Below are positions 5,603-43,404 of a stretch of DNA of 64,000 nucleotides, piece by piece; the first letter of the stretch is position 1, and each line of letters starts with the position of its first letter. Made by a program: the position numbers and the translations under genes. Under the pieces are notes generated by a model, which was not told where the DNA came from, did not search any database, and worked only from the letters and a program-made list of their open reading frames with translations. The stretch lies in the sequence record OL770310; one strand, written 5' to 3'. The stretch comes from Escherichia phage PSa2.

Positions 5603-5629
5603 TTAGAATGCGTTACAGAGCGTTTTAGA
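5603..5629 (+). repeat. 27-bp direct repeat TTAGAATGCGTTACAGAGCGTTTTAGA, copy 1
   Basis: identical copy at 9681-9707; related TAGAATGCG motifs near 6107 (inverted) and 10778. Confidence 0.6.
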
Positions 5630-5946
5630 CCCTGTTAATAACTTATACAAAAAGCAAAAATGAAATTTAATGAGTTATCCACTTGATTTTTCAAAAAAGT
5701 ATTTTCTGCTATTATTTTTCATTGACAAATAAGTTTAGACGTGCATTGATTGGTTAGCAGACTAACAATCGCTAGGATGATAATCACGCTGGTGGATTGT
5801 AACAGCTGAAACAGTTAGCAGACTATTAATACTCTAAAAACCTATTAGCCAACTAACTATTTCATATTATATAATATACTTATAAATTAAAGAGAAATAA
5901 TAACTATAAGAAACTATCGGCTAAGTGAGAACCACTATCATTTAGG

Positions 5947-5967
5947 TTATTCACAAAGTTATCCACA
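5947..5967 (+). promoter_or_regulatory. two adjacent DnaA-box-like 9-mers (TTATTCACA, TTATCCACA)
   Basis: matches to DnaA box consensus TTATNCACA read directly. Confidence 0.5.
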
Positions 5968-6007
5968 GCACAAAATAACTTGACGCAATAGGTGACGTTT
6001 TGGCGAC

Positions 6008-6016
6008 TTATCCACA
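6008..6016 (+). promoter_or_regulatory. DnaA box TTATCCACA
   Basis: exact consensus 9-mer. Confidence 0.5.
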
Positions 6017-6036
6017 GACTTATATACAGGTTATCC

Positions 6037-29208: not shown

Positions 29209-29284
29209 TGGTAGTTAGTAGTGGATTTGAACCACTGTAGTCGCTCCGTATGAAGGAGGTGCATAACCTCTCTGCCAACTAACT
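29209..29284 (-). tRNA. tRNA, anticodon CAU (Met / fMet / Ile2 type)
   Basis: hand-folded: acceptor 7/7 Watson-Crick, T-arm AGTGG-TTCAAAT-CCACT, anticodon loop UUCAUAC, CCA encoded. Confidence 0.55.
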
Positions 29285-29380
29285 ATTATGTTTTACTAGA
29301 CTAAGTAAGTATTCTTTATACTCTTTAGACCAATTAGCTTTTTTAAACTTTCCTGGACGCATAGTCTTACTTCCTAAATT

Positions 29381-29457
29381 TGGTACTCCAGGAGGGATTT
29401 AAACCCCCGATCTCTCGGTTATCAGCCGAGTGCTTTAGATCGCTAAGCTACCGAAGC
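29381..29457 (-). tRNA. tRNA-Ile (GAU)
   Basis: hand-folded: anticodon arm CUCGG-CUGAUAA-CCGAG; acceptor stem has 3 G-U pairs. Confidence 0.5.
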
Positions 29458-29458
29458 A

Positions 29459-29665
29459 TTAACATTTAATTACAGAACGTTTACCATTTCTAGGCGCACC
29501 TGGAAGTCGTGCACGTTCTGCCATTCTTCGCTTAATCTTTGGGATATTTTCTAGTGTTTGTTCTTCAGGCTTAATACCTGAAACACTACACCACTGATTA
29601 CCATCCCATGCGGTAATGATCATAACACCATTACCCATAATCTTTTCTGTGAAAGTAATTCTCAT
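29459..29665 (-). CDS. hypothetical protein
   Basis: 68-aa ORF. Confidence 0.4.
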   Translation of the reverse strand: MRITFTEKIMGNGVMIITAWDGNQWCSVSGIKPEEQTLENIPKIKRRMAERARLPGAPRNGKRSVIKC

Positions 29666-29958
29666 TATAACAACTCGTCTAAGTAAGAGGTATACTGGTA
29701 TTTAGCTTCACCAGTTTTATCTACTTCGACTTCTGTTCTAGGTACTTTTCGTACCAGACCGTGAATCATCTTATATTGAATAGATTTAGATGGTTCGTGA
29801 TCTTTAGGAAAGACCTGCTTAACTGTAACTACTTTAAATCCCTCACGTGGTGTTAGTACAACAACTTGATCACCTTCTTTGATTTTCCAAGACTCAGGAA
29901 ATTCATAAGTGTAGCGTTGACCACCGGTAAGGAATATAACAGAAAGATAACGTTTCAT
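29665..29958 (-). CDS. hypothetical protein
   Basis: 97-aa ORF. Confidence 0.45.
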   Translation of the reverse strand: MKRYLSVIFLTGGQRYTYEFPESWKIKEGDQVVVLTPREGFKVVTVKQVFPKDHEPSKSIQYKMIHGLVRKVPRTEVEVDKTGEAKYQYTSYLDELL

Positions 29959-29988
29959 TTGGTTTTCCTCTCATTAATTTATACAAAC

Positions 29989-30018
29989 ATTATATCAAGA
30001 AATAAGAGGAAAGGCAAA
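29989..30018 (-). promoter_or_regulatory. sigma70 early promoter
   Basis: promoter family motif. Confidence 0.5.
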
Positions 30019-30032
30019 TGAATTTTTAAATT

Positions 30033-30107
30033 TGGTGCTCCCACCAGGAATCGAACCCGGTTCAGATGCTTACAAGGCAACTGCATCGCCAGCAATGCTT
30101 TAGGAGC
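30033..30107 (-). tRNA. tRNA-Thr (UGU)
   Basis: hand-folded: T-arm CCGGG-TTCGATT-CCTGG, loop CUUGUAA. Confidence 0.55.
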
Positions 30108-30274
30108 AATAAACCCGTTATTTCAACGGGATTTCTTTTTCAAATACAGGAGACTTATCAGACATTACTGTCATAGCCAACTGCTGTAGAAATTCGAATG
30201 AGAGTTTTAAACGTTCTTCGCCCAACTCAACCTCAACGCGCTTCATTCGTTTATCTACCTTTATCTTTAGATTA

Positions 30275-30496
30275 TCAGCCATCTTCGGGTTCTCTTTGCT
30301 CAGCTATTGCTAGCCAGTCTGGTAAAAGAAACTTAGTACGAAATTCTTCATATGTTTCTTCCGGATGAAAGCTATAGCCTTGCTTTTCATCATTTAATAA
30401 AACCGAACCGTCTTCCTGCTCATAAGCTCGGTATGTTTCACCAATAATTAAAACTCGCCTATTAGGGTTTTTATTACGAAACTCAAAAACGTCCAT
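30275..30496 (-). CDS. hypothetical protein
   Basis: 73-aa ORF. Confidence 0.4.
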   Translation of the reverse strand: MDVFEFRNKNPNRRVLIIGETYRAYEQEDGSVLLNDEKQGYSFHPEETYEEFRTKFLLPDWLAIAEQREPEDG

Positions 30497-30511
30497 AACG
30501 TTTCCTTAAAT

Positions 30512-30586
30512 TGGTGCGGGATACGAGAGTCGAACTCGTGTCTACTGGTTGGAAGCCAGTTATTCTAGCCACTGAACTAATCACGC
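30512..30586 (-). tRNA. tRNA-Gly (UCC)
   Basis: hand-folded: anticodon arm ACUGG-CUUCCAA-CCAGU; 3' half resembles bacterial tRNA-Gly. Confidence 0.6.
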
Positions 30587-30592
30587 ATAAAT

Positions 30593-30668
30593 TGGCTGGA
30601 GAAGGAGGAATCGAACCTACCATTAACGGAGTCAAAGGCCGTTGTGCTAACCGTTACACTACTCTCCA
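30593..30668 (-). tRNA. tRNA-Gln (UUG)
   Basis: hand-folded: loop CUUUGAC, 3' end CCAGCCA as in bacterial tRNA-Gln. Confidence 0.55.
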
Positions 30669-30674
30669 AGTATT

Positions 30675-30750
30675 TGGCTGGGATGCCACGGATCGAACGT
30701 GGAACCTTCGGAGTCAGAGGCCGACGATCTGCCAATTGATCTACATCCCA
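30675..30750 (-). tRNA. tRNA-Gln (CUG)
   Basis: hand-folded: acceptor 7/7, loop CUCUGAC. Confidence 0.55.
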
Positions 30751-30758
30751 ATAATTTT

Positions 30759-30959
30759 TTATTCTTCAGGAACCGTGGCTATTGGATCTGGTTCTTCTAG
30801 ACGTTTACCATTATGATCGACACGAATAATGCCACAACCTTCACAGATTACAACAGCACCATAGCCTTCTTTAACTTCGGCTTCTGTAATCAGACCAGAT
30901 AAATCACCAGTATCTTTGCCCCACATATCAATAGAGCATTCTTTGCAGAAATCAGCCAT
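30759..30959 (-). CDS. zinc-ribbon-like small protein (CxxC...CxxC)
   Basis: 66-aa ORF. Confidence 0.4.
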   Translation of the reverse strand: MADFCKECSIDMWGKDTGDLSGLITEAEVKEGYGAVVICEGCGIIRVDHNGKRLEEPDPIATVPEE

Positions 30960-30983
30960 ATTTTATTTCCTATTTAAGTTAAT

Positions 30984-31058
30984 TGGTGCATCCTCAGGGA
31001 ATCGAACCCCGATCGTAAAGTTCGTAGCTTTACATTCTTTCCGTTGAAATAAGGACGC
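30984..31058 (-). tRNA. tRNA-Arg (ACG)
   Basis: hand-folded: anticodon arm UAAAG-CUACGAA-CUUUA. Confidence 0.6.
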
Positions 31059-31064
31059 AATATT

Positions 31065-31141
31065 TGGGGTGGCTAGTGGAATTCGAATCCACATAGGCCT
31101 GATTCACAATCAGGATCATTAACCAATTATGATATAGCCAC
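31065..31141 (-). tRNA. tRNA-His (GUG)
   Basis: hand-folded: anticodon arm CCUGA-UUGUGAA-UCAGG, discriminator C. Confidence 0.6.
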
Positions 31142-31502
31142 AATTGAAAACTCGTAGGGTTAGCGAAACCATCCTCAAATAGTATTTTCTAGAATACTAA
31201 TCAAGTTATCTCCTATTGCACGAAGCTCAAGACGAGTACGAATTTTCAATTGTGGCGGCTCTCCGAAACTCATCACACTAACAACTAGTTGATTACACCT
31301 GGATTCTCGCCCAGGAAATTCTCTAGAAAGGTGCACCGTTACTCTTTGAGCCATTGAATATCAAGAAGCAGAAGGACTTGAACCTTCATGAGATAGACCA
31401 TTTATCTCAGCCTCGTTTTCGGGTATCTTATGAGGAGTGGATGTTCCCCTTACGCCCTTTAGGAAGCCCCGTCTACCGATTCCGGCATACTTCAAGAATT
31501 AT

Positions 31503-31706
31503 TTAAAACTTGTAACCTTCGGGAACCTTATCCTTAACACCAATATACTCAGCTTGGATGTAGTATGTTGGCACATGATCTTTAGGTAGATCTTTATTTA
31601 CATCATTAACTTCCATCAAGGCTTCGGCCTCGGTGTCAAATGGACGATACCAGATTTCACCACCCCAGCCACGTTCGCTTTCGGTATACTTAACAATGTG
31701 TTTCAT
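31503..31706 (-). CDS. hypothetical protein
   Basis: track ORF 31503-31757 trimmed to internal Met so it does not overlap the tRNA. Confidence 0.4.
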   Translation of the reverse strand: MKHIVKYTESERGWGGEIWYRPFDTEAEALMEVNDVNKDLPKDHVPTYYIQAEYIGVKDKVPEGYKF

Positions 31707-31724
31707 AAGGTTTTCCTTATTAGT

Positions 31725-31814
31725 TGGAGGAAGGTAATGGAGTCGAACCATCACCATATCGCTACAGCGGGCAGGTTTTCAAGACCTGTTACATACCACT
31801 ATGTCCTACCTTCC
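31725..31814 (-). tRNA. tRNA-Ser (UGA), long variable arm
   Basis: hand-folded: acceptor 7/7, loop CUUGAAA, ~90 nt. Confidence 0.55.
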
Positions 31815-31821
31815 AGTTGTT

Positions 31822-31914
31822 TGGCGGAAGAAGAGAGATTCGAACTCTCAAGCCTGCTTTCACAAGTCAGCCACTTTCCAAGCGGTTTTCGTCACCTAAT
31901 CGATTTGCTCTTCC
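31822..31914 (-). tRNA. type II tRNA, anticodon tentatively GGA (Ser)
   Basis: acceptor and T-arm (GAGAG-TTCGAAT-CTCTC) clear; anticodon arm assignment uncertain. Confidence 0.4.
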
Positions 31915-32088
31915 GTAGATCTTAGGATTAAATCATAAACCTCATTAGCGCATACTGGAAGTATGAGATTGTACATCTTTTGGTCGTACCTCTGACCATA
32001 TTCTATAAACACATACTCTTTAGTTAATGTATTAATAGCCAACCAGATATCAGTTACAGGAGTTTTCATCGTGATTTAATCCAATGTT

Positions 32089-32169
32089 TGGTAGGGATGG
32101 AGGGACTCGAACCCACACCCGAAGACTAGAACCTAAATCTAGCGCGTCTGCCAATTTCGCCACATCCCC
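32089..32169 (-). tRNA. tRNA-Leu (UAG)
   Basis: hand-folded: anticodon arm CUAGA-UUUAGGU-UCUAG. Confidence 0.45.
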
Positions 32170-32176
32170 ATTTTAT

Positions 32177-32395
32177 TTAGTTAGAAATAAATAATAATCC
32201 CGCAACAATGGAACCTACGCCACTGAATACCATTATCAGCATAGCTTCTAAGCTGATAAAGCGGACAGTATATGGAGCGCCCCAAGAATAATCAGTAAAG
32301 AAAGTTTTCTTTTCTTTAGCTAAATCTTTAACAATTCTAAAATAGATAGCTAGTGCTAAAGCTGCAAGAACTACAGAGGCTGCTAAGAATACCAT
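32177..32395 (-). CDS. small membrane protein
   Basis: 72-aa ORF, two hydrophobic segments. Confidence 0.4.
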   Translation of the reverse strand: MVFLAASVVLAALALAIYFRIVKDLAKEKKTFFTDYSWGAPYTVRFISLEAMLIMVFSGVGSIVAGLLFISN

Positions 32396-32415
32396 ATTAT
32401 TTCCTTAATTTGTTT

Positions 32416-32490
32416 GGTGGAGTCACTCAGAATTGAACTGAGTTCCACTGCTTGCAAGGCAGTAAGTTTAACCAAATAACCTATGACCCC
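32416..32490 (-). tRNA. tRNA-Ala (UGC)
   Basis: hand-folded: G3-U70 pair present, loop CUUGCAA. Confidence 0.55.
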
Positions 32491-32496
32491 GAATTT

Positions 32497-32570
32497 TGGT
32501 GGAGAAAGAGGGAGTTGAACCCTCGTCTTCTGCGTGCAAAGCAGATGTTCTACCATTAAACTATATCCCC
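32497..32570 (-). tRNA. tRNA, anticodon UGC by simplest fold (Ala-like, second copy)
   Basis: hand-folded: anticodon arm UCUGC-UUUGCAC-GCAGA, G3-U70; one acceptor mismatch. Confidence 0.45.
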
Positions 32571-32925
32571 AAAATCTTTAAGTTTACTAAGGCTATTAGC
32601 TCGGTGTGCGTACTGCCCTCAGACATTAGCCAGTAGAGAACAGCCGCTCTTCACAAACCCGATACACTATTCAGTTGCCGCTGAATCTAGTGGACTAATC
32701 TAGAACTTATTGCAAAGTATCCCCCGCCATTAGGGGTCTAATTGCAACTGTGCTTGTTGGCAGCCAGTCCTAGGTCGAGCTAATACCTTAGTGAACTAAA
32801 TTGATGGATATCAGACTAATTTTGCTACGGCGTTTATCCTGAGGATCTCTTTTTCGGTAGCTCTGCTAGTGTAGACGTCATACACCTGATATCTAGGCAG
32901 CTATTTTCACATCAATTTATATAAA

Positions 32926-32955
32926 TATTATAACAAGAAATTAAGCATCAAGCAA
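32926..32955 (-). promoter_or_regulatory. sigma70 early promoter
   Basis: promoter family motif. Confidence 0.5.
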
Positions 32956-33307
32956 GTACATTTTTAGCAATTTCTTGTAGTTCCTTAACGTCACTAACGA
33001 AAAGGTAGTCAGAGCTTCCAGAGTGCATACTCTGCATAACCACACCACCATCCGGTGCATCTTCTTTCAAGGTAAGTCCTAACCAGAACTCGGCAAAACT
33101 AGGTGTTACCTCACCTTGACTTGCCTTGAACACATCGCCTTCTGTGATCTCTTGACCAGTGGAGAGTCCCATGTATGGTACGTTCAGATCAATATCTTTG
33201 TAGAACTCAGCTAGATCTTGCTCGAAATCCCAACCTTTAGAGATAGCGAACTCCATTGTTACATGACCGAAATAGCCTTGAACCTTGCTTGATAATTGCA
33301 TTTGCAA
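32948..33307 (-). CDS. hypothetical protein
   Basis: 119-aa ORF. Confidence 0.5.
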   Translation of the reverse strand: MQMQLSSKVQGYFGHVTMEFAISKGWDFEQDLAEFYKDIDLNVPYMGLSTGQEITEGDVFKASQGEVTPSFAEFWLGLTLKEDAPDGGVVMQSMHSGSSDYLFVSDVKELQEIAKNVLA

Positions 33308-33326
33308 TTCCTTATTTTGAGTTAAT

Positions 33327-33400
33327 TGGTACTCGGTGATAGAATCGAACTATCGCAACCGCCGTGTAAAGACGGGGTTCTCCCATTAAACTAACCGAGC
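33327..33400 (-). tRNA. tRNA-Val (UAC)
   Basis: hand-folded: T-arm GATAG-TTCGATT-CTATC, loop UUUACAC. Confidence 0.55.
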
Positions 33401-33404
33401 AATT

Positions 33405-33482
33405 TGGTGGATTGCCTGGGATTCGAACCCAGAACTGACGGATTAAAGGTCCGCTACTCTTATCCAGTTGAGCTAGCAATCC
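33405..33482 (-). tRNA. tRNA-Lys (UUU)
   Basis: hand-folded: acceptor 7/7, loop CCUUUAA (C at position 33). Confidence 0.5.
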
Positions 33483-33868
33483 AATTTTTCTACTAATAAT
33501 TTAAAAGCATCTAGTACAGGTACTTCAAACCATTCTCCAGATACTCTATAATCTTTAAGAAGATTATGTAATTCTTTCTCTGTACGTCTTTTATCCGACG
33601 AAAATCTGAAATGGTATAGCTTGTAGTCTCTATTAGGTGAATAAGTTTGATAACTTGTTAACCTCTCATTCACATCTATAGTCATACCTATTTTATACAT
33701 GCCTGGCCATGCTGGATTACCAATTACATATACAAAACCTTCCGTTATAGGTATTTTATGCTCCCTTTTATACTTTAAGAGATTTAAGGCTGCCATTCGA
33801 TAACAGAATCTAAACTCTGAAGTTTTTAACTTACCTTCTTTACCTGAAATTTCGTTATATTTGCTCAT
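33473..33868 (-). CDS. T5orf172 / GIY-YIG-like domain protein
   Basis: 131-aa ORF; GFVYVIGNPAWPGMYKIGMT ... GEWFE pattern. Confidence 0.55.
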   Translation of the reverse strand: MSKYNEISGKEGKLKTSEFRFCYRMAALNLLKYKREHKIPITEGFVYVIGNPAWPGMYKIGMTIDVNERLTSYQTYSPNRDYKLYHFRFSSDKRRTEKELHNLLKDYRVSGEWFEVPVLDAFKLLVEKLDC

Positions 33869-34122
33869 ATAAGCTCTTATGAGCTTATCATCTATAATGA
33901 AGTTATCAGGAAGGTTTAAGGCAGCTAAAAACTTTATTAATTAGCATAGACTTCTTTAATAGAGTAAACTTTTAAGTAAGGATGATTAATACCAAATTCC
34001 GCCATCACTTCATTTTCATCTTTACCGTAATAGGCTAATGGATACTTCTTACGATCTTTACTAGAACGTAAATCACTTACTTTTAAACGAAATAATTTCA
34101 TTTCGAAATCCTTCTATTAAAT

Positions 34123-34200
34123 TGGAAGCGGGTGCAGGAATCGAACCTACCTCTTTCTAGCTTATGAGACTAGAGATCTCTACCAGAGATCTAACCCGCA
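34123..34200 (-). tRNA. tRNA-Met (CAU)
   Basis: hand-folded: D-arm GATC/GATC, loop CUCAUAA; one acceptor mismatch. Confidence 0.5.
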
Positions 34201-34206
34201 ATTGTT

Positions 34207-34284
34207 TGGTCTCCGTGGGAGGATTTGAACCCACGACCCTATCGCCCCAAACGAAACGCTCTGGCCAAACTGAGCTACACGGAG
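34207..34284 (-). tRNA. tRNA-Pro (UGG)
   Basis: hand-folded: acceptor 7/7, loop UUUGGGG. Confidence 0.55.
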
Positions 34285-34317
34285 AATATTCTTTGTTAAC
34301 TCACTTTATAAAATATA

Positions 34318-34346
34318 TTATACAGAGAATTAAGCTAAATAGCAAC
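34318..34346 (-). promoter_or_regulatory. sigma70 early promoter
   Basis: promoter family motif. Confidence 0.5.
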
Positions 34347-34593
34347 TACATTTTTTAATAAATTTACTTATTAGGTAAGTCACCGAGCTATCAACTCATG
34401 CTAGCGAGAAAGTTTGCGAGACCTTCTTTAAGTACTAGAACACACCCGCCGATGTGTCGGACTTACTTAATAAGTAAACTTTCGTTTACTTACACCTACC
34501 TGGTCGGGAGGATTTTCAGCGACTAGAACCGGCCGGAAACTCATCGCCTTGTTTATCTAGGAGTCCGTTCTCTAGGAAGCAGAAACCTAAATT

Positions 34594-34667
34594 TGGTGCG
34601 GTCGGAGGGAATCGAACCCTCAACTTTTGGTTGGCAACCAAAAATTATACCTTTTAACTACGAACGC
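34594..34667 (-). tRNA. tRNA-Gly (GCC)
   Basis: hand-folded: anticodon arm UUUGG-UUGCCAA-CCAAA. Confidence 0.55.
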
Positions 34668-34669
34668 AT

Positions 34670-34880
34670 AATAAGTCAATCTAGGCAGGACTTGAACCTG
34701 CTATCACTTGTGCGGATTTACGAGAACCATTCTTTCACTCGAATCGAACGAGCTTCTACCCTCGGCAAGCTGGTGTCCCCTCTCCACCACGCTAGAATGA
34801 TAATTAATGCCTGCTCCTTTGAATCAAGAAGTCCACCCCGGACTTTGGGTCTTTGCAGTACATCACGCTGCTCTGATGTT
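34670..34880 (-). other. tRNA-like segment: two canonical T-arm motifs but no pairing acceptor stems found
   Basis: minus-strand GCAGG-TTCAAGT-CCTGC and GCTCG-TTCGATT-CGAGT without matching 5' acceptor strands. Confidence 0.3.
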
Positions 34881-34956
34881 TGGTACACCCACTAGGACTT
34901 GAACCTAGAACCCTCCGCTTAAGAGGCGGTAGCTCTAACCATTGAGCTATGGATGT
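34881..34956 (-). tRNA. tRNA, anticodon CUU by simplest fold (Lys-like)
   Basis: hand-folded: T-arm CTAGG-TTCAAGT-CCTAG, loop CUCUUAA. Confidence 0.45.
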
Positions 34957-35032
34957 ATTATTATGTTTTGCAGTGCTCTAAATATAGACACTTCCCACGC
35001 GGTGGTTATCTATACCAGCGTCCTGCAAAAAT

Positions 35033-35109
35033 TGGCGCGACCGATGGGATTCGAACCCACATTTTCTCCCGTGACAGGGGAGTACCATTACCAAGCCAGC
35101 CCCGATCGC
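35033..35109 (-). tRNA. tRNA-Asp (GUC)
   Basis: hand-folded: anticodon arm CUCCC-CUGUCAC-GGGAG. Confidence 0.6.
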
Positions 35110-35118
35110 ATAATTTAT

Positions 35119-35304
35119 TTACTCAGTTTTGAGTTTTTCGATAGCTTCCTCAACCTCTTTTAGAGCTTCACGACGGGCATTCTGTTGCTGCATATCTTGA
35201 ATTAATGTCAGTTTTTGGTTTTCAATTTCTTGATCCCAAACCTTAATATTATTAATCAGACTATCACGATCAGCTTCTAGTCGAGCAATTGCACGAGTTG
35301 TCAT
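35119..35304 (-). CDS. small coiled-coil protein
   Basis: 61-aa ORF. Confidence 0.4.
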   Translation of the reverse strand: MTTRAIARLEADRDSLINNIKVWDQEIENQKLTLIQDMQQQNARREALKEVEEAIEKLKTE

Positions 35305-35405
35305 ATCTATTTCCTCAGTTATTAATGAAAATGGTATCTGTGACTGAATTCAATATCAGTAATGATAGCTGGTTGGCTACCGGTTTACTTAACTCTACAC
35401 AGAAT

Positions 35406-35488
35406 ATGGCGGGCCGTGTAGGATTCGAACCTACGTTGTCTTTCGACATGGATTAACAGTCCACCGCCAAACCGCTTGGCTAACGACC
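35406..35488 (-). tRNA. tRNA with anticodon GUU (Asn) and an unusual 13-nt variable arm
   Basis: hand-folded: anticodon arm GUGGA-CUGUUAA-UCCAU; variable hairpin GTCGAAAGAC. Confidence 0.4.
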
Positions 35489-35495
35489 CTAAAAT

Positions 35496-35571
35496 TTGGA
35501 CGACCGCATGAGATTCGAACTCACATAAGGAGGTTTTGCAGGCCTCCGCCTAAGCCATTCAGCCAACGGTC
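35496..35571 (-). tRNA. tRNA, anticodon tentatively GCA (Cys), enlarged anticodon loop
   Basis: acceptor and T-arm clear; anticodon stem GGAGG/CCTCC encloses a 9-nt loop. Confidence 0.35.
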
Positions 35572-35750
35572 GAGTTATCTTGCTTTTCGAGATTAGTAAA
35601 CTCTAGATCTTTAGAATGTCCTATAGATCTAGCATAATAGCCATCTCCAGCATCATAGCCTGATTTACCACACTTACACATCTTAAACTCGCGTAAACGT
35701 GTAAATATATGTTCAGAACCACAACACTTAAATTTAACTAGCTTTTTCAT
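35559..35750 (-). CDS. Cys-rich small protein
   Basis: 63-aa ORF; 3' end overlaps tRNA, true extent uncertain. Confidence 0.35.
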   Translation of the reverse strand: MKKLVKFKCCGSEHIFTRLREFKMCKCGKSGYDAGDGYYARSIGHSKDLEFTNLEKQDNSTVG

Positions 35751-35989
35751 CCAACACGCTCCGGCAGGTCTTCCAGTTTATATTCAGTAGCCACATTAGC
35801 AGCATCTAGTAACAAACCCATATGTTTAAGAATTCTAGTGATAGCCTCGCCTTCTGCTTCTTCTACAAAGCAGCGTAGTTGCATGAAGTCAATACCACCA
35901 TCCATACCAGAGAAAATGTTAAGTAAGCGAAGCATTACCAGCTTACGTTCTTTCAATTCTTGTTCTGTCATGTTGCTTCTCCAGTTCAA
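35747..35989 (-). CDS. hypothetical protein
   Basis: 80-aa ORF. Confidence 0.45.
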   Translation of the reverse strand: MNWRSNMTEQELKERKLVMLRLLNIFSGMDGGIDFMQLRCFVEEAEGEAITRILKHMGLLLDAANVATEYKLEDLPERVG

Positions 35990-36000
35990 TTTATGAAATA

Positions 36001-36030
36001 ATTATACAGAACTTTAAGCGGTTAAGCAAC
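36001..36030 (-). promoter_or_regulatory. sigma70 early promoter
   Basis: promoter family motif. Confidence 0.55.
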
Positions 36031-36309
36031 TACATTTTTCAGAAATATGATGCCTTTCTTTTTCTTCTTATACTTCCACGTTAACGGGTTCTGTCTATTA
36101 TGAACGCTTGAGATCTTTGTCTCGTCAAAGTTCTTCAATACCATGTAATCACAGGCCAACTGTTCTAGTGGAATGTGATCTCCGTCAAAAGCGTAAACGT
36201 AAGGCTGTTGACTGGCACGATAATGATAGACTTTGTTAATTCTGCGTTTCAGTGACTTATCCGCACAGTAAATAAAGAAGTTTTCAGGATGCATCAGCAT
36301 CTCCTTCAA
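36022..36309 (-). CDS. hypothetical protein
   Basis: 95-aa ORF. Confidence 0.45.
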   Translation of the reverse strand: MKEMLMHPENFFIYCADKSLKRRINKVYHYRASQQPYVYAFDGDHIPLEQLACDYMVLKNFDETKISSVHNRQNPLTWKYKKKKKGIIFLKNVVA

Positions 36310-36311
36310 AT

Positions 36312-36386
36312 TGGTGCACCCTGTTCGAATTGAACGAACCTCTCAAGCTCTTCAGGCAAGCGCTAATCCATCTCAGCTAAAGGTGC
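36312..36386 (-). tRNA. tRNA-Phe (GAA)
   Basis: hand-folded: T-arm GTTCG-TTCAATT-CGAAC, loop CUGAAGA; weak anticodon stem. Confidence 0.45.
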
Positions 36387-36392
36387 AAATAT

Positions 36393-36470
36393 TGGCAAAC
36401 CTACTAGGACTCGAACCTAGACCGTACGGTTTTGGAGACCGACATGCTGTCCAGTAACACTCTAGGAATG
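36393..36470 (-). tRNA. tRNA-Trp (CCA) candidate
   Basis: anticodon arm UCGGU-CUCCAAA-ACCGU resembles bacterial tRNA-Trp; acceptor pairing poor, 5' end uncertain. Confidence 0.35.
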
Positions 36471-36477
36471 CAGAAAT

Positions 36478-36554
36478 TGGCGTCCTGTGCGGGGATCGAA
36501 CCCGCAAATCCTACCTTGAAAGGGTAGTGACTTTACCAGTTTGTCTAACAGGAC
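36478..36554 (-). tRNA. tRNA-Glu (UUC)
   Basis: hand-folded: acceptor 7/7, T-arm GCGGG-TTCGATC-CCCGC, loop CUUUCAA. Confidence 0.6.
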
Positions 36555-36561
36555 TTAAATT

Positions 36562-36652
36562 TGGTGTTGGATGATGGAGTCGAACCACCCGAGACCCTTC
36601 CGAGTCGGCAGATTTACAGTCTGCTTCGCTACCTCTACGATACTAATCCAAC
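36562..36652 (-). tRNA. tRNA-Tyr (GUA), long variable arm
   Basis: hand-folded: acceptor 7/7, anticodon arm GCAGA-CUGUAAA-UCUGC. Confidence 0.6.
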
Positions 36653-36777
36653 ATATTTGAATGAAAAGTAAGTCGGTTAAACTCAAGGTGGAATATTTCA
36701 GGATTTCCTGACTTTACCCATAAAAGTAACTCGCTTAGTTACTTCTCATTCAGATATGTTTTCCAAATTAGATAACT

Positions 36778-36807
36778 ATTATATCAAGTTTTGAAGGACT
36801 GAGCAAG
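36778..36807 (-). promoter_or_regulatory. sigma70 early promoter
   Basis: promoter family motif, degenerate. Confidence 0.4.
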
Positions 36808-36842
36808 TCAAATTTTAAAGAACTTGCTCAGTGCTACATCAG

Positions 36843-37118
36843 TTACTCGAAGCTAGGAGTGACACTCAGTTTGAATGGAAGCTCGAACACTTCTTCATAA
36901 TCATCATTGAGCGTAATTACACGACCTTCTAGCTTAGTCATGGTGATTTCGATATCAGCCCTTGCATCAGGAGCCATACCAGCTTCCACACATTTAGCTT
37001 TAACTTCCGGCAGAAGTTCTACATCGTAGAAATAAAGCCATTCAATCTCACCTTCCCAGCCACCCCAGGATTTACAAACAGCACTTTCAACACCAGTTGC
37101 AGTAACACGTTTTGACAT
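36843..37118 (-). CDS. hypothetical acidic protein
   Basis: 91-aa ORF. Confidence 0.5.
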   Translation of the reverse strand: MSKRVTATGVESAVCKSWGGWEGEIEWLYFYDVELLPEVKAKCVEAGMAPDARADIEITMTKLEGRVITLNDDYEEVFELPFKLSVTPSFE

Positions 37119-37148
37119 TCGTTAACTCCTTCATCAATTTATATAACT

Positions 37149-37179
37149 ATTATAACAGAAATCTTAAGTAAAAAGCAAG
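37149..37179 (-). promoter_or_regulatory. sigma70 early promoter
   Basis: promoter family motif. Confidence 0.5.
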
Positions 37180-37208
37180 TACATTTTTAAAATTTCTGCT
37201 TGGAGGAG

Positions 37209-37460
37209 TTAAACTCCTGATTCTTCAGCCAGATCAAGCCCAACCAACGTGATTGCCATAATAGCCGCGCCATGTTCTTTCTCTCCTAGCTCTTTGGCTT
37301 GAGTGAGAATATTAAGGAATTGCTTTTGAAAATCTGCAACTTCTTCTGTCATGCCTGCTTCAGCAATGATTCCTTTCAGCATAAAGCGTTGTGCCGTAAT
37401 TTCAGAATTAGCCATTTGTTTTCTCCAGTTGTTTAGAATGTAAGCCAAACTTAGGATCAT
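37209..37460 (-). CDS. hypothetical protein
   Basis: 83-aa ORF. Confidence 0.45.
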   Translation of the reverse strand: MILSLAYILNNWRKQMANSEITAQRFMLKGIIAEAGMTEEVADFQKQFLNILTQAKELGEKEHGAAIMAITLVGLDLAEESGV

Positions 37461-37566
37461 AGCGATCGTAAGTAGTACCGTTAGTTGAAGCCTTGATGCT
37501 ATGAAAACGACAGTACATAAATTTACGTAGTGCTTTCTTAATAGCTTTCATTTTATTTCCTTAATT

Positions 37567-37643
37567 TGGTAGGGGTGGTGGGATTCGAACCCACAAAACC
37601 TGAATTTTAAGTCCAGTACCTATGCCAATTCGATTACACCCCC
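37567..37643 (-). tRNA. class I tRNA with anticodon UAA by simplest fold (Leu-decoding)
   Basis: hand-folded: T-arm GTGGG-TTCGAAT-CCCAC, anticodon arm CUGGA-CUUAAAA-UUCAG, short variable loop. Confidence 0.4.
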
Positions 37644-37651
37644 ATGTAATC

Positions 37652-38005
37652 TTAGCGAATCTCTAAACCCTGGAAATATCGAGGGAATGGAGAGCCAACT
37701 TCAAAATTGATGCCCCAATTAAGTTCAACGAGTTCAGATTTATTAAGATCTAGGCCATTACCTTCAAAGATATAGCCGTAAACCGCAGGGAACATAGCTG
37801 CTAGATCTTCCATATCGGAATGAGCATTGTGTTCTTCACGGAACTGCTCAAACTCTTCAAAGAACTTTTCTAGGAAGAACTCAGGTACGATGAACGTTAC
37901 CACATCAGTAGAATCATCGGTACGATACACCGTAGCTTGGAACAAGCCAACACCTAAAAGGTTTATTGCCGGAGTAGTAAAAATATCCATCTTAGCCTCG
38001 CTCAA
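37652..38005 (-). CDS. hypothetical protein
   Basis: 117-aa ORF. Confidence 0.5.
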   Translation of the reverse strand: MSEAKMDIFTTPAINLLGVGLFQATVYRTDDSTDVVTFIVPEFFLEKFFEEFEQFREEHNAHSDMEDLAAMFPAVYGYIFEGNGLDLNKSELVELNWGINFEVGSPFPRYFQGLEIR

Positions 38006-38177
38006 TGTCTAGACAAATTGCATATTCAGGGTTGATACCAGTACCTTTACATGTAGGACATTCCCATTCTCTACAGAAAATATCCCCAGGTTCTGCATCA
38101 TCCTGCCTACCACCACCATGACAATCCTTACACCGACATTCTTCTAAGGCTTTCTTCATTTCATAGAATCTAGACAT
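37992..38177 (-). CDS. zinc-finger-like small protein
   Basis: 61-aa ORF; CRCKDCHG ... CPTCKGTG. Confidence 0.4.
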   Translation of the reverse strand: MSRFYEMKKALEECRCKDCHGGGRQDDAEPGDIFCREWECPTCKGTGINPEYAICLDIERG

Positions 38178-38194
38178 ATAGTCTCCTAGTTAAT

Positions 38195-38272
38195 TGGTGG
38201 CTCCCGGAGGATTCGAACCTACCTACCTTTCGCTTATGAGGCGACGGCTCATACCAAATGAGCTTGAGAACC
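38195..38272 (-). tRNA. tRNA, anticodon CAU (Met / fMet / Ile2 type)
   Basis: hand-folded: D-arm GCTC/GAGC, loop CUCAUAA. Confidence 0.5.
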
Positions 38273-38277
38273 AAATT

Positions 38278-38371
38278 TGGAGGAAGATGCCAGATTCGAA
38301 CTGGCACACCGTGTCTCCACAGCTACTGGCTGTTTAGCAAACAGCTCCCTTACCTTTAGGGTTAATCTTCC
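38278..38371 (-). tRNA. tRNA-Ser (GCU), long variable arm
   Basis: hand-folded: acceptor 7/7, anticodon arm GCUGU-UUGCUAA-ACAGC. Confidence 0.5.
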
Positions 38372-40831: not shown

Positions 40832-41776
40832 TTACTTGTTACGCATATCCATGATCATTTGACCATCGTAGCCAGTACCAACAACAGTCTGCGGTACACC
40901 ACCTTGGTATTTTTCAGCACGAAGCATTTCAACTTCCAGCTGCTTCCAACGAATCATTTCAGGAGTAATGGTACGTTGCAGAGCGGCGTTAGCTTCAGCC
41001 TCTTTCTTAGCTGCGTACAGTTTAGCATCTGCGTCACGTTCGTTAGCTACTGCCATGTTTTCACGAGCGGAACGATCTGCCTCAGCTTGCTTAACTTTCT
41101 GCTGTGCTTCTTGTTCAACACGAGCCAGTTCAGCTTTTGCAGCGTTAACTTGTTCTTCACGAACTTTGGTGTTCTGTACCTGTTCCATGATTACCGGTGG
41201 CAGAGTAATATCCTGAAGGAATACTTGCTTAACGGTGTAACCATAAGGACGCGCATACTCTTCTACTTCTTGCTGAATAGCGGTTTGCAGTTGAGCCTGA
41301 ATCTTAGCGTCGAACAGATCTTGTGCTTTTGGTACAGACTTACCAAACTCACGAATCGTAGATAGCATCTTCTCTTCAACGTACTTGTTCAGAGCTTGAT
41401 CCTGAGTACCTGCGTTAACACGGTTCATAGGAGCTTTAGCTCCATCAAACTGCAACATAACGGTAATGTCAACAGTAGACTTAAACTTATCCTGGCTAGG
41501 AACCTGAAGTTTATCCAGTTTCATAGAAATATCTTTCGTACTAAAAGTATCAAAAGAAGCAAATGGGTTAACAATATGGAAGCCTGGCAATACAGGATTA
41601 GGGCTAACTTTACCCAGGAAAGTTTGGGTCTTAACAGTACCATCCTGAACAACTGTATAGGAATTGAGAGCCAGAATAAGAGCACCAAGACCAACAGCAG
41701 CACCAACACCCCAACGTTTAATAGTACGAATTACTTTTTGCTCAGAAGTCAGTTCTTTAGTGTTTTTAGTAAACAT
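40832..41776 (-). CDS. SPFH/band-7 (prohibitin/HflC-like) domain membrane protein
   Basis: 314-aa ORF; N-terminal TM, SPFH-like core, Ala/Glu/Gln-rich coiled coil. Confidence 0.55.
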   Translation of the reverse strand: MFTKNTKELTSEQKVIRTIKRWGVGAAVGLGALILALNSYTVVQDGTVKTQTFLGKVSPNPVLPGFHIVNPFASFDTFSTKDISMKLDKLQVPSQDKFKSTVDITVMLQFDGAKAPMNRVNAGTQDQALNKYVEEKMLSTIREFGKSVPKAQDLFDAKIQAQLQTAIQQEVEEYARPYGYTVKQVFLQDITLPPVIMEQVQNTKVREEQVNAAKAELARVEQEAQQKVKQAEADRSARENMAVANERDADAKLYAAKKEAEANAALQRTITPEMIRWKQLEVEMLRAEKYQGGVPQTVVGTGYDGQMIMDMRNK

Positions 41777-41988: not shown

Positions 41989-42014
41989 TTTATTTTCCTA
42001 GCAGTTAATAAAAT

Positions 42015-42089
42015 TGGCCGAGGTGACAGGATTCGAACCTGCATAAAGGAATTTAGAAGACTCCTGCCTATCCCTTAGACTACACCCCG
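42015..42089 (-). tRNA. tRNA-Arg (UCU)
   Basis: hand-folded: D-arm GUCU/AGGC, anticodon arm GGAGU-CUUCUAA-AUUCC. Confidence 0.55.
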
Positions 42090-42099
42090 TTTAGGTATT

Positions 42100-42900
42100 T
42101 TTAAGAACTCTCGTAAAAGTCCTTAAAGATACCCGACGGTAGGTAGGGTCAGCCCCCTCAGATTAAGCTCTGCAGCCCTTCCGTCAGACAATATCTTCCA
42201 GTTTAAGTCAAGGTGACTTTGTGGTTATGTTCTCCGTATGTGAAGAACTCGGTTAGGCTTAGGTCATGACTCCCAGCCTACTGCTGCCGCTCAACAGGAA
42301 TTATCGCGAATTACCTGTACTATTGGGCACCATTAGTGACATCTCTCATGTCAGCGTTTCCCACTCTCATATTCACGCGGTCTGTTAGAATCGCACCTCC
42401 GATTTTCGATGCGAAGCTGGATGCCTAGTCTCAGGTTAAACGGGGTACACACTAGGCAGTGATCCCGAGTTCCGAGTTTGGTTGAGGCCGTCAGGTTTCC
42501 TCGTGGTTTAGCTGTTTCGATTCTAACCTAATACTGATCAGGCGGCGTACCTCCTGAACCGTCATAGTATGTACTCCAGCAGCGAATGCTTATCCGGTAT
42601 AAGCCCGAGTTATCCGATTCTTTCCAGAAGGAGCAGTGAAGCTCAATGTCAGCCTGTGAGCATCTGGCAGTGTTATCACATAAGTCAGTTCGACACCCCA
42701 CTAACATAAACTAGAGAAGAGTTTACGAGATTTCGGGACAGCTCCCGAGTTTTCCACAGATTTTCAGTTCCCTATCAATAGCAATAAGCGTTAGCTCGTA
42801 GCCTCTCTCAGAGTACTTACTAGTCTCCAACTCACCGACTCTATTCAGTGGAATAGCTATCCTACTAGGAATCACTAAACTCACTCAGCGTAATCGGCTC
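42100..42900 (-). other. ORF-free, GC-richer 0.8-kb transcribed leader (candidate structured RNA)
   Basis: no ORF of 60 aa or more on either strand; between promoter at 42914-42942 and tRNA-Arg. Confidence 0.35.
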
Positions 42901-42913
42901 GCTGTTCTCTAAT

Positions 42914-42942
42914 TTATGAATCTATTATACAGAATTTTAAAG
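42914..42942 (-). promoter_or_regulatory. sigma70 early promoter
   Basis: promoter family motif. Confidence 0.55.
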
Positions 42943-42960
42943 CATTTAGCAAATCAATTT

Positions 42961-43404
42961 TTAATTAAATTCGCCAGCAACCTGAGCAGCAATGCCACCG
43001 TCGTAACGACCAGGAAACTCTTCCTTAATCGCTTTCATCAGCATACCCTTTGTAATCCCAGGATTCAGCTTAACTAATTCTGCGAAGTATTTGCGAATCT
43101 CAGAATCAGATAGCTGAGGAGGCAAATACTGCTGTAACCATTTGTTCAGTATATATTCATACTGAGCAGACTGCAAGCTATAATTATCAAGGTCTTGACC
43201 GTGAAGTTTAGCTTTTGTCTGATTAATGCTTTTCAGTTGAGCTTTTAGATAAGATACAAACTGTTCAGAAGTAATGAAGTCTTTATCAACACGCTGAAGA
43301 TCTCCGATTATGGTTTGGTAGCTTTTAGCTACTTCTTTATCAGAACCATCAACCTTAGATTCCTGCAAAGCCCTACGCAAAACATCTAGAATATTCTCTT
43401 CCAT
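42961..43404 (-). CDS. GatB/YqeY-domain-like protein
   Basis: 147-aa ORF; C-terminal pattern resembles YqeY family. Confidence 0.45.
   Translation of the reverse strand: MEENILDVLRRALQESKVDGSDKEVAKSYQTIIGDLQRVDKDFITSEQFVSYLKAQLKSINQTKAKLHGQDLDNYSLQSAQYEYILNKWLQQYLPPQLSDSEIRKYFAELVKLNPGITKGMLMKAIKEEFPGRYDGGIAAQVAGEFN

What the first reader, a model, noticed from the sequence alone, without database searches (positions are those of the whole stretch)
42090..42913. 0.8-kb ORF-free, GC-richer transcribed leader upstream of tRNA-Arg(UCU)
No ORF of 60 aa or more exists on either strand across about 820 bp, although the surrounding genome is densely coding. The segment looks GC-richer than its flanks and lies between an early promoter (42914-42942) and tRNA-Arg, so it should be transcribed as the 5' part of that RNA. 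It may be a structured non-coding RNA, a degenerate gene remnant or a precursor processed to release the tRNA.
Basis: seen in the sequence. Interest (0 to 1): 0.55.

Follow-up and report, generated by a model that had tools for sequence, protein, structure and literature searches.

The report
Large structured phage RNA (T5 RNAX)
The gene-free stretch is this T5-like phage's copy of "RNAX", a roughly 830-base RNA long listed in phage T5 as a stable RNA of unknown function; it folds into an elaborate structure kept across the phage family, much like the giant "ornate" phage RNAs GOLLD and ROOL.

Summary
Window 41989-42960 is the longest stretch without an ORF of 60 aa or more. The finding's region has 46.8% GC against 39.6% for the window. 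It lies on the minus strand between a sigma-70 promoter (-35 at 42947-42952, -10 at 42924-42929) and tRNA-Arg(UCU).

It is the orthologue of T5 rnaX, annotated in GenBank AY543070 as "stable RNA with unknown functions". Homologues occur in over 500 T5-like genomes of four genera. None was found in bacterial genomes, and no Rfam family matches.

It is not coding: substitutions show no codon periodicity and most indels break the reading frame. It is a multi-domain structured RNA. A 13-bp helix starts at the predicted 5' end. A 14-bp helix is 97% paired with 7 of 12 pairs compensatory. A five-way junction at 42218-42366 is 92% paired with 24 of 33 pairs compensatory. Invariant loops include the palindrome GUCAUGAC.

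Most relatives carry a tRNA-like element at one helix tip; this phage has a hairpin there. Its lifestyle resembles GOLLD and ROOL, but no homology to them is detectable. The function is unknown. Self-association through palindromic loops is my inference, not a result.

The parts
42947..42952 (-). -35 hexamer TTGCTA of the RNAX promoter, the homologue of T5 early promoter 'P 16-17'
   Evidence: Consensus scan, 10 of 12 matches with a 17-nt spacer. The promoter is annotated at the same place in T5 and in phage S114.
42924..42929 (-). -10 hexamer TATAAT
   Evidence: Conserved in all relatives aligned.
42090..42917 (-). RNAX transcript, about 828 nt. The predicted 5' end is at 42917 +/- 2. The position equivalent to T5's annotated 5' end is 42910. 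The 3' end at 42090 is the base before tRNA-Arg +1.
   Evidence: Orthology to the T5 and DT571/2 misc_RNA rnaX. The 5' end follows from -10 spacing and the start of helix P1. The 3' end is inferred from RNase P processing of the adjoining tRNA.
42905..42917 (-). P1 5' strand, AUAAAUUAGAGAA
   Evidence: A 13-bp long-range helix with 8 covarying pairs. Duplexes of -9 to -18 kcal/mol form in the relatives where the partner strand was located correctly, and some lineages carry matched 2-nt length changes on both strands.
42706..42718 (-). P1 3' strand, UUCUCUAGUUUAU
42719..42904 (-). Domain I, a 186-nt insertion in the P1 loop. It is absent from the minimal T5 form and mosaic among relatives. It contains the hairpins CAGCG/CGCUG and CGGGA-GCUG-UCCCG.
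   Evidence: Alignment. The CAGCG/CGCUG hairpin has 4 pairs changed on both sides. Independent folds of 29 variants agree on its main helices.
42694..42702 (-). P2 5' strand, within AGUGGGGUG
   Evidence: Pairs with AAACCAC at 42502-42509. It is almost invariant, and DU_PP_V carries the compensatory form ACGG/CCGU.
42502..42509 (-). P2 3' strand, AAACCACG
42675..42688 (-). Pa 5' strand, CUGACUUAUGUGAU
   Evidence: Fixed-offset comparison that was not fitted to any structure: 97.4% paired, 7 of 12 pairs changed on both sides, against 28-39% paired and 0-1 such pairs when the partner is slid.
42605..42618 (-). Pa 3' strand, AUCGGAUAACUCGG
42624..42667 (-). Lineage-specific 44-nt hairpin (CCAGA...UCUGG) in the slot where most relatives carry a roughly 70-nt tRNA-like element
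   Evidence: Alignment. The tRNA-like element in relatives scores 36-39 bits with Rfam tRNA. Nothing tRNA-like is found here in the window.
42588..42604 (-). Hairpin GCUUAU-ACCGG-AUAAGC
   Evidence: Three pairs changed on both sides. Present in all independent folds.
42391..42414 (-). Hairpin UCGCA/UGCGA with the conserved loop UCGAAAAUCGGAGG, which resembles a Shine-Dalgarno sequence
   Evidence: The stem changes to UCACA/UGUGA in Klebsiella phages and to ACAUA/UAUGU in the 26175III type, while the loop is kept. This was read from the alignment by eye.
42218..42366 (-). Conserved 3' domain ('module B'), a five-way junction. Its closing helix is GUGG 42361-42364 with CCAC 42221-42224. Its arms are Ba 42337-42353, Bb 42282-42332, Bc 42255-42279 and Bd 42229-42248.
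   Evidence: RNAalifold gave 33 pairs. Covariance model R1 finds five of the six sequence types; the DU_PP_V type was not detected. 92% of cells are paired and 24 of 33 pairs changed on both sides, with 0 of 500 shuffles as high and slid controls at 24-47% paired. Unaided folds of diverged types give the same architecture.
42304..42309 (-). Palindrome UCGCGA in the apical loop of arm Bb
   Evidence: Other lineages have CGCGCG, CUCGAG, GUGCGCAC or CCGCGG at the same apex. Per-type shuffle probabilities are 0.007-0.56, so this is only suggestive.
42262..42273 (-). Near-invariant apical loop GGAGUCAUGACC of arm Bc, containing the 8-nt palindrome GUCAUGAC
   Evidence: GUCAUGACC is identical in all 48 unique homologues, including the Klebsiella and Pectobacterium phages, while the supporting stem is completely different. 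The SenI1 type has A in place of the second G.
42206..42218 (-). Hairpin AGUCA-CCU-UGACU, followed by the conserved UAAACUGGAA
   Evidence: Nearly invariant in the alignment; coordinates.
42132..42190 (-). Pc domain: helix UGUCUGACGG (42181-42190) with CCGUCGGG (42132-42139), enclosing two small hairpins
   Evidence: The closing helix is kept with different sequences in the T5, Klebsiella and DU_PP_V types.
42094..42133 (-). Terminal A/U-rich hairpin with a 17-18 bp stem. It is the most conserved piece of the RNA.
   Evidence: 95-97% identical in the Pectobacterium and Yersinia phages. Folds of 18 variants. It stays with RNAX when an ORF is inserted before the tRNA.
42015..42089 (-). tRNA-Arg(UCU), immediately downstream on the same strand
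   Evidence: ARAGORN; Rfam tRNA 49.3 bits.

Best explanation
The region encodes this Epseptimavirus-type phage's orthologue of bacteriophage T5 rnaX, a roughly 830-nt non-coding RNA.

Shown here. It has its own strong sigma-70 promoter, and the first transcribed bases form helix P1. No terminator separates it from tRNA-Arg(UCU). It folds into a conserved multi-domain structure made of these parts:
- helix P1, which encloses a variable 5' domain;
- a second domain closed by AGUGG/CCAC, containing the 14-bp helix Pa, whose tip carries either a tRNA-like element (most relatives) or a plain hairpin (this window);
- a universally conserved 3' domain, a five-way junction with invariant loops;
- a terminal 17-18 bp hairpin.

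Inferred. Host RNA polymerase transcribes RNAX together with tRNA-Arg during the early phase. RNase P cleavage at the tRNA 5' end sets the RNAX 3' end. The terminal hairpin and compact fold make the RNA stable.

Most likely mode of action, inferred with about 0.3 probability on its own. RNAX acts as an RNA architecture rather than by base-pairing to a target. It would self-associate through the self-complementary apical loops of the 3' domain (invariant GUCAUGAC, and a G+C palindrome whose sequence varies), as kissing loops do in OLE, ROOL and GOLLD. Its role would be tied to tRNA or translation biology during infection.
For: Orthology: the window has the same position, strand and flanking genes as T5 and DT571/2, where the segment is annotated 'rnaX, RNAX, stable RNA with unknown functions' with promoter P 16-17. 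BLAST finds 523 phage records. Model R1 scores the window at 171.5 bits and T5 at 149.7 bits.

Structure: P1 has 13 bp with 8 covarying pairs. Pa is 97.4% paired with 7 of 12 compensatory pairs, against 28-39% in slid controls. The 3' domain is 92% paired with 24 of 33 compensatory pairs and 0 of 500 shuffles as high. Unaided folds of six diverged sequence types give the same junction. Pc and the terminal hairpin are kept across types.

Strand: 22 G:U cells against 6 A:C cells, which points to RNA from the minus strand.

Not coding: position-mod-3 chi-square p = 0.69-0.99, and 2/3 to 11/18 of indels are not multiples of three.

Autonomy: the RNA is retained when an ORF separates it from the tRNA. 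Module B is 74-85% identical to T5 and DT571/2, against 57-59% for the adjacent YqeY-like gene.

Parallels to GOLLD and ROOL: Kretsch et al. 2025 (PMC12286853) describe these as phage-encoded and near tRNA islands. They report for GOLLD a conserved 3' region with a variable 5' region and tRNAs sometimes in the linker, and kissing loops in the quaternary structure.
Against: No expression data exist for this phage. 'Stable RNA' rests on a GenBank note for T5 whose primary publication I could not find.

T5's annotated 5' end lies 7 nt inside my predicted P1.

The oligomerisation idea has only indirect support. Palindromes in the Bb loop are individually weak (shuffle P 0.007-0.56), most share a CG core, and Trudi/L040 and DU_PP_V have only 4-nt palindromes. 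The invariant GUCAUGAC could equally be a protein site or an intramolecular contact with the nearby AGUCA...UGACU hairpin.

The alignment behind one search was fitted to the model. The sequences are related, and there are about 6 independent types.

The middle region (about 42415-42500 and 42510-42587) and domain I are not fully resolved.
Confidence: 0.75

Rival explanations
1. RNAX works as a ribonucleoprotein scaffold or sponge. Its invariant loops would be binding sites for a phage or host factor, for example the neighbouring YqeY-like protein, 30S subunits through the GGAGG loop, RNase E, or a tRNA enzyme. Self-assembly would play no part.
For: Invariant single-stranded motifs sit on freely changing stems. 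A Shine-Dalgarno-like GGAGG lies in a conserved loop at 42391-42414. A YqeY-like gene is directly upstream in most genera. GOLLD is reported to pull down ribosomes (PMC12286853).
Against: The YqeY-like gene is not adjacent in the Klebsiella Sugarlandvirus relatives, which keep the RNA. No partner was identified, and nothing here separates this reading from the best explanation.
Confidence: 0.25
2. RNAX is chiefly a carrier or precursor for an unusual tRNA or tRNA-like decoy. RNase P and RNase Z would excise the embedded element, which then acts in translation or against anticodon nucleases.
For: The embedded element passes Rfam's tRNA threshold in DT571/2 (39 bits), DU_PP_V (38.3) and TrudiGerster (36.2). 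ARAGORN and GenBank annotators call it tRNA-Ser(ACU), Sec, Pro or OTHER. T5 tRNAs are known to counter PARIS and retron Eco7 (PMC11464382).
Against: The window phage, S116 and L016 have replaced it with a plain hairpin yet keep the rest of the RNA. Its anticodon arm is degenerate. About 90% of the conserved RNA is not tRNA-like.
Confidence: 0.1
3. It is only a long 5' leader or spacer of the tRNA-Arg precursor, discarded after processing and without a function of its own.
For: It abuts the tRNA, and no terminator lies between the promoter and the tRNA.
Against: A discarded spacer would not keep compensatory base changes, invariant loops and a conserved architecture across four genera. It persists when uncoupled from the tRNA by an inserted ORF. 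T5 annotates it as stable.
Confidence: 0.04
4. It holds small protein genes or the remnant of a decayed gene, as several GenBank records imply by annotating 34-61 aa 'hypothetical proteins' here.
For: Such CDSs are annotated in PMBT22, TrudiGerster, vB_Sen_I1, Sepoy and others. Antisense ORFs of 59-60 aa recur in Tequintavirus relatives.
Against: The ORFs differ in strand, frame and extent between lineages. A 25-nt indel breaks the frame in the window. Substitutions show no 3-periodicity. The 59-aa ORF has no Pfam hit. The 'DRRIRT' peptide is the reverse complement of a tRNA T-loop.
Confidence: 0.03
5. It is a DNA-level element such as an origin, a nick or packaging site, or a recombination hotspot, rather than an RNA.
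For: It is GC-rich, carries many palindromes and is mosaic between lineages.
Against: The covariation tolerates G:U but not A:C (22 against 6 cells), which is specific to one strand. The helices begin at the predicted transcription start. T5 annotates it as an RNA.
Confidence: 0.03

Closest known systems
Bacteriophage T5 rnaX / RNAX (GenBank AY543070 misc_RNA 40848..41566, 'stable RNA with unknown functions'; also annotated in DT571/2, NC_047749)
   Same: It has the same locus: a YqeY-like gene (T5.081), then promoter P16-17, then the RNA, then tRNA-Arg(UCU), all on one strand. It shares helix P1, the P2/Pa core, the five-way 3' domain, the invariant loops and the terminal hairpin. Module B is 74% identical to T5 and 85% to DT571/2.
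   Different: The window RNA is about 110 nt longer than T5's 719 nt. It has a 186-nt domain inserted in the P1 loop, where T5 has a 7-nt loop. It lacks T5's 83-nt duplication. It has a plain hairpin in place of T5's embedded tRNA-like element. Its central region is largely non-homologous.
GOLLD RNA (Rfam RF01998)
   Same: Both are phage-encoded and lie in or beside a tRNA island. Both are 600 to over 1,200 nt with many helices. Both have a universally conserved 3' domain and a variable 5' part. A tRNA or tRNA-like element sits in a variable region of some members. The function of both is unknown (PMC12286853).
   Different: No similarity to the GOLLD covariance model appears even at E <= 10. 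The hosts and phage type differ: RNAX is in virulent T5-like phages of Enterobacterales. Quaternary structure is untested.
ROOL RNA (Rfam RF03087)
   Same: Both are large, ornate, phage-borne and near tRNA genes, and both are thought to act without a known protein partner.
   Different: There is no covariance-model match. RNAX is longer and modular, and nothing suggests a shared fold.
HIV-1 dimerisation initiation site and the intermolecular kissing loops of OLE, ROOL and GOLLD
   Same: A self-complementary 6-8 nt sequence is displayed in an apical hairpin loop: GUCAUGAC, and UCGCGA with its lineage variants.
   Different: This is an analogy only, and no dimerisation was tested. Part of the GUCAUGAC palindrome overlaps the closing G-C pairs of the loop.

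Membership tests
T5 rnaX (RNAX) stable RNA | Lies between the T5.081-type YqeY-like gene and tRNA-Arg(UCU), on the same strand | tested here: met
T5 rnaX (RNAX) stable RNA | Sequence and structure homology to the annotated T5 and DT571/2 RNAX | tested here: met
   blastn. Model R1: window 171.5 bits, DT571/2 183.8, T5 149.7. Identity figures.
T5 rnaX (RNAX) stable RNA | Preceded by the homologue of early promoter P 16-17 | tested here: met
   TTGCTA-17-TATAAT. The promoter is aligned with T5's and annotated in T5 and S114.
T5 rnaX (RNAX) stable RNA | Accumulates as a stable RNA in infected cells | not testable with these tools
   Only the GenBank note is available. No primary paper was found.
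GOLLD RNA (RF01998) | Match to the family covariance model | tested here: not met
   No hit at E <= 10 in the window, nor at E <= 5 in five relatives.
GOLLD RNA (RF01998) | Phage-encoded and beside a tRNA island; conserved 3' region with a variable 5' region; tRNA sometimes in a variable linker | tested here: met
   The feature list comes from PMC12286853. The tRNA-like element is present in relatives but not in this window.
GOLLD RNA (RF01998) | Homo-oligomeric RNA-only nanocage | not testable with these tools
   Only palindromic loops were seen.
ROOL RNA (RF03087) | Match to the family covariance model | tested here: not met
tRNA (RF00005), for the element at the tip of helix Pa | Cloverleaf scoring above Rfam's gathering threshold of 29 bits | tested here: not met
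   Nothing is found in window 42090-42917 at E <= 10. The feature is met in relatives: 39, 38.3 and 36.2 bits.
Protein-coding gene or pseudogene | Conserved reading frame, codon-position bias of substitutions, and indels in multiples of three | tested here: not met

The most novel reading that the evidence does not exclude
RNAX would be a further, previously uncurated class of giant ornate phage RNA that assembles into an RNA-only homo-oligomer. Assembly would use two-fold-symmetric kissing loops (GUCAUGAC and the Bb palindrome), with a tRNA-like element as optional cargo or appendage. It would be the first such RNA in a classical, genetically tractable coliphage (T5) and its relatives.
Probability: 0.25. 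Interest if true: 0.85.

Novelty: new member of a known kind. Interest (0 to 1): 0.66.

Why it matters
The functions of GOLLD and ROOL are still unknown, partly because they occur in poorly tractable phages and metagenomes. RNAX sits in T5 and hundreds of its relatives that infect E. coli K-12 and Salmonella, where genetics, defence-system panels and biochemistry are routine.

Suppose RNAX belongs to the same functional kind: a large, self-folding, possibly self-assembling RNA linked to phage tRNA islands. The question of what these RNAs do would then become directly testable.

There is also a practical point. The RNA is missing from Rfam, and many GenBank records fill it with spurious 'hypothetical proteins' and pseudo-tRNAs. 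A curated model would clean up the annotation of more than 500 genomes.

Tried and rejected
- Rfam. Scans at E <= 1 and E <= 10 on the window and at E <= 5 on five relatives gave only tRNAs and chance hits. A gathering-threshold scan of the whole window gave tRNAs only.
- Metagenome scan with the terminal-hairpin pattern. It returned 20 loci, of which 8 were true; all 8 are T5-like phages and the rest are chance matches.
- Bacterial and archaeal genome scans. The specific core pattern found nothing. A looser pattern gave at least 120 hits, but model R1 rejected every one, with the best at E = 0.53.
- IMG/VR scans returned essentially the sequenced T5-like isolates.
- Model R1 did not detect the DU_PP_V copy. 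Its homology rests on blastn of conserved blocks and on alignment and folding read by eye.
- Literature searches for rnaX or RNAX and for T5 stable RNAs or transcriptomes found no description.
- A whole-length RNAalifold run on a MAFFT alignment was too noisy because the sequences are mosaic. I switched to analysing one module at a time.
- A permissive all-against-all helix scan gave many false stacks. I kept only helices that were confirmed independently.
- The palindrome Monte Carlo was only suggestive.
- The 169-aa ORF inserted in relatives has no Pfam or PHROG match.
- The single-sequence folding z-score is modest: -2.5 for the minus strand and -1.3 for the plus strand, from 20 shuffles.

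Full report
**Observation.** The window is a T5-like phage genome of the Epseptimavirus type. The best match is Salmonella phage PMBT22, at 99% identity over the region. On the minus strand the order is: a 147-aa YqeY-like gene (42961-43404), the finding's region, tRNA-Arg(UCU) (42015-42089), a 66-aa ORF and an SPFH/Band-7 gene.

No ORF of 60 aa or more overlaps 42090-42913; the largest is 59 aa. The ORF-free stretch 41989-42960 is the longest in the window. GC is 0.468 against 0.396, the 99.8th percentile. A sigma-70 promoter, TTGCTA-17-TATAAT, lies at 42952-42924 on the minus strand. No terminator-like site lies between it and the tRNA.

Absence of ORFs is not remarkable on its own, since 24% of shuffles also lack them. 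The case rests on comparative evidence.

**Identity.** The segment matches 451 phage records by megablast and 523 by blastn. They include Salmonella, Escherichia, Klebsiella, Shigella, Citrobacter and Yersinia phages, plus the terminal hairpin in Pectobacterium phage DU_PP_V. The genera covered are Epseptimavirus, Tequintavirus, Sugarlandvirus and Hongcheonvirus.

In T5 itself (AY543070) and in DT571/2 the homologous segment is annotated 'misc_RNA rnaX, RNAX, stable RNA with unknown functions'. It abuts tRNA-Arg and is preceded by 'promoter P 16-17'. I found no paper describing it. No Rfam family, GOLLD and ROOL included, matches the window or five diverse relatives. Pattern scans found it only in T5-like phages, including 8 metagenomic contigs, and not in 185,579 bacterial and archaeal species genomes.

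**Not coding.** Several GenBank records place 34-61 aa 'hypothetical proteins' here on either strand. ORFs differ between lineages in strand, frame and extent. Two antisense ORFs of 59-60 aa recur in Tequintaviruses. The 60-aa one contains 'DRRIRT', which is the reverse complement of a tRNA T-loop (GGTTCGAATCC), and a 25-nt indel disrupts it in the window. Substitutions against five relatives are evenly spread over positions mod 3 (p = 0.69-0.99). Most indels are not multiples of three.

**Architecture.** I collected 48 unique homologues of 651-1307 nt, measured from the -10 hexamer. They are mosaics of conserved blocks and lineage-specific insertions.
- P1. The first transcribed bases (42917-42905) pair with 42718-42706 in a 13-bp helix with 8 covarying pairs, and some lineages carry matched 2-nt length changes on both strands. 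In T5 this is a simple hairpin with a 7-nt loop. Here it encloses a 186-nt domain I.
- P2. AGUGG (within 42694-42702) pairs with CCAC (within 42502-42509). DU_PP_V has the compensatory ACGG/CCGU.
- Pa. 42675-42688 pairs with 42605-42618. In a fixed-offset comparison not fitted to any structure, 97.4% of cells pair and 7 of 12 pairs changed on both sides. With the partner slid, 28-39% pair and 0-1 pairs change.
- Tip of Pa. Most relatives carry a roughly 70-nt tRNA-like element there. It scores 39, 38.3 and 36.2 bits with Rfam tRNA in DT571/2, DU_PP_V and TrudiGerster, and annotators call it Ser(ACU), Sec, Pro or OTHER. The window, S116 and L016 have a 44-nt hairpin instead, with an equivalent closing helix (42624-42667).
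- 3' domain (42218-42366). This is a five-way junction. RNAalifold predicts 33 pairs. A covariance model built from the T5 and Epseptimavirus forms also finds the 26175III, Klebsiella and S126/phiR2-01 forms. On that alignment 92% of cells pair and 24 of 33 pairs changed on both sides. None of 500 shuffles scores as high, and slid controls pair at 24-47%. That alignment is fitted to the model, so the unaided minimum-energy folds of each type matter: they give the same junction with wholly different stem sequences.
- Pc and the terminal hairpin. The Pc helix and a 17-18 bp terminal hairpin (42094-42133) are kept across types. The hairpin is 95-97% identical even in the Pectobacterium and Yersinia phages.
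- Strand. G:U cells outnumber A:C cells 22 to 6, as expected for an RNA read from the minus strand.
- Conservation. Module B is 74-85% identical to T5 and DT571/2, against 57-59% for the adjacent YqeY-like gene.

**Invariant and palindromic loops.** The Bc apical loop GGAGUCAUGACC (42262-42273) has the core GUCAUGACC identical in all 48 homologues, while its stem is replaced entirely. The stem is UAGGCU/AGCCUA here, UACUAAAC/GUUUAGUA in the S126 type, GUGAC/GUCAC in Klebsiella phages and CCUAGAC/GUCUAGG in DU_PP_V. The loop contains the 8-nt palindrome GUCAUGAC.

The Bb apex carries UCGCGA here. Elsewhere it carries CGCGCG (T5), CUCGAG (26175III), GUGCGCAC (S126/phiR2-01) or CCGCGG (Klebsiella). 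Two lineages have only 4-nt palindromes. Per-type shuffle probabilities are 0.007-0.56. This suggests self-complementary kissing loops but does not prove them.

**How it probably works.**
- Shown: the promoter, the helix at the 5' end, the conserved fold, the absence of a terminator before the tRNA, and retention of the RNA when a 510-nt ORF is inserted between it and the tRNA.
- Inferred: early transcription by host RNA polymerase; co-transcription with tRNA-Arg; a 3' end set by RNase P; stability from the terminal hairpin and compact fold.
- Function: unknown. The closest analogues in lifestyle are GOLLD and ROOL. They are phage-borne and near tRNA islands. GOLLD has a conserved 3' region and a variable 5' region, with tRNAs sometimes in the linker, and both form RNA-only assemblies held by kissing loops (PMC12286853). 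By analogy, and because of the palindromic loops, I favour an architectural, self-associating RNA connected with tRNA or translation. A protein-binding scaffold is nearly as likely. The tRNA-like element cannot be the core function, because this phage lacks it.

**Novelty.** The RNA's existence has been on record in GenBank for T5, so the window copy is a new member of that gene family. Several things appear undescribed and uncurated: its conserved ornate structure, its modular evolution, the swappable tRNA-like element, its spread across Demerecviridae, and its resemblance in lifestyle to GOLLD and ROOL without detectable homology.

**Limits.**
- There are no expression data for this phage.
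- There are about six independent sequence types.
- Domain I and the centre (about 42415-42587) are only partly resolved, and two alternative pairings compete in domain I.
- T5's annotated 5' end is 7 nt inside my predicted P1.

Noticed in passing
L003 1677-2186 (phage oselot); also L005, L010, L012, L016, L040: A 169-aa ORF with no Pfam or PHROG match is inserted exactly between the RNAX terminal hairpin and tRNA-Arg in several relatives. It behaves like a mobile insertion with a precise target.
   Followed up: partly
L018 (phage H8-like IMG/VR contig), intergenic positions 44-526: A 160-aa ORF sits inside the loop of helix P1, in place of or within domain I. It is another insertion tolerated at a helix tip.
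   Followed up: no
L039 / L095 (phage T5 RNAX): T5 carries an 83-nt insertion flanked by a duplicated AGUCACCUUGAC(U/A)UAAACUGGAA, so it has two copies of the conserved hairpin motif.
   Followed up: no
window 42694-42702 / 42502-42509 and 42361-42364 / 42221-42224; L014 (DU_PP_V): Both large domains are closed by the same motif pair, AGUGG...CCAC. In DU_PP_V both pairs changed in the same way, to ACGG...CCGU. This could mean an internal duplication or alternative pairing between the two units.
   Followed up: partly
window 42391-42414: A conserved hairpin has a covarying stem and a loop UCGAAAAUCGGAGG that resembles a strong Shine-Dalgarno sequence. No start codon follows it.
   Followed up: no
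L002 (PMBT22), L004 (TrudiGerster), L006 (vB_Sen_I1), L013 (SelmaRatti): GenBank records annotate two to four 'hypothetical proteins' of 33-61 aa on both strands across RNAX, and others annotate pseudo-tRNAs (Sec, Pro, OTHER). These look like annotation artefacts of an unrecognised RNA gene.
   Followed up: yes
window 42961-43404 (minus strand); L007, L014: A YqeY-like gene (PF09424 at 25 bits, just under the cut-off; phrog_1460 'tRNA amidotransferase') lies directly upstream of RNAX in Tequintavirus and Epseptimavirus and close to it in DU_PP_V. In Klebsiella Sugarlandvirus the upstream gene is a cell-wall hydrolase instead.
   Followed up: partly
window 5294-6030: This is the second-longest ORF-free stretch (737 nt). 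It holds three copies of a 17-nt repeat, GTTAGCAGACTAACAAT, at 5753-5860, and several inverted repeats. It has no Rfam match.
   Followed up: no
window 29209-38371: An array of 28 further tRNA genes lies on the minus strand. It includes two tRNA-Ala(UGC), three CAU-anticodon tRNAs and both tRNA-Gln. tRNA-Arg(UCU) and RNAX sit 3.6 kb beyond its end. The T5 deletion mutants used in PARIS work remove parts of the array but not rnaX (PMC11464382).
   Followed up: no
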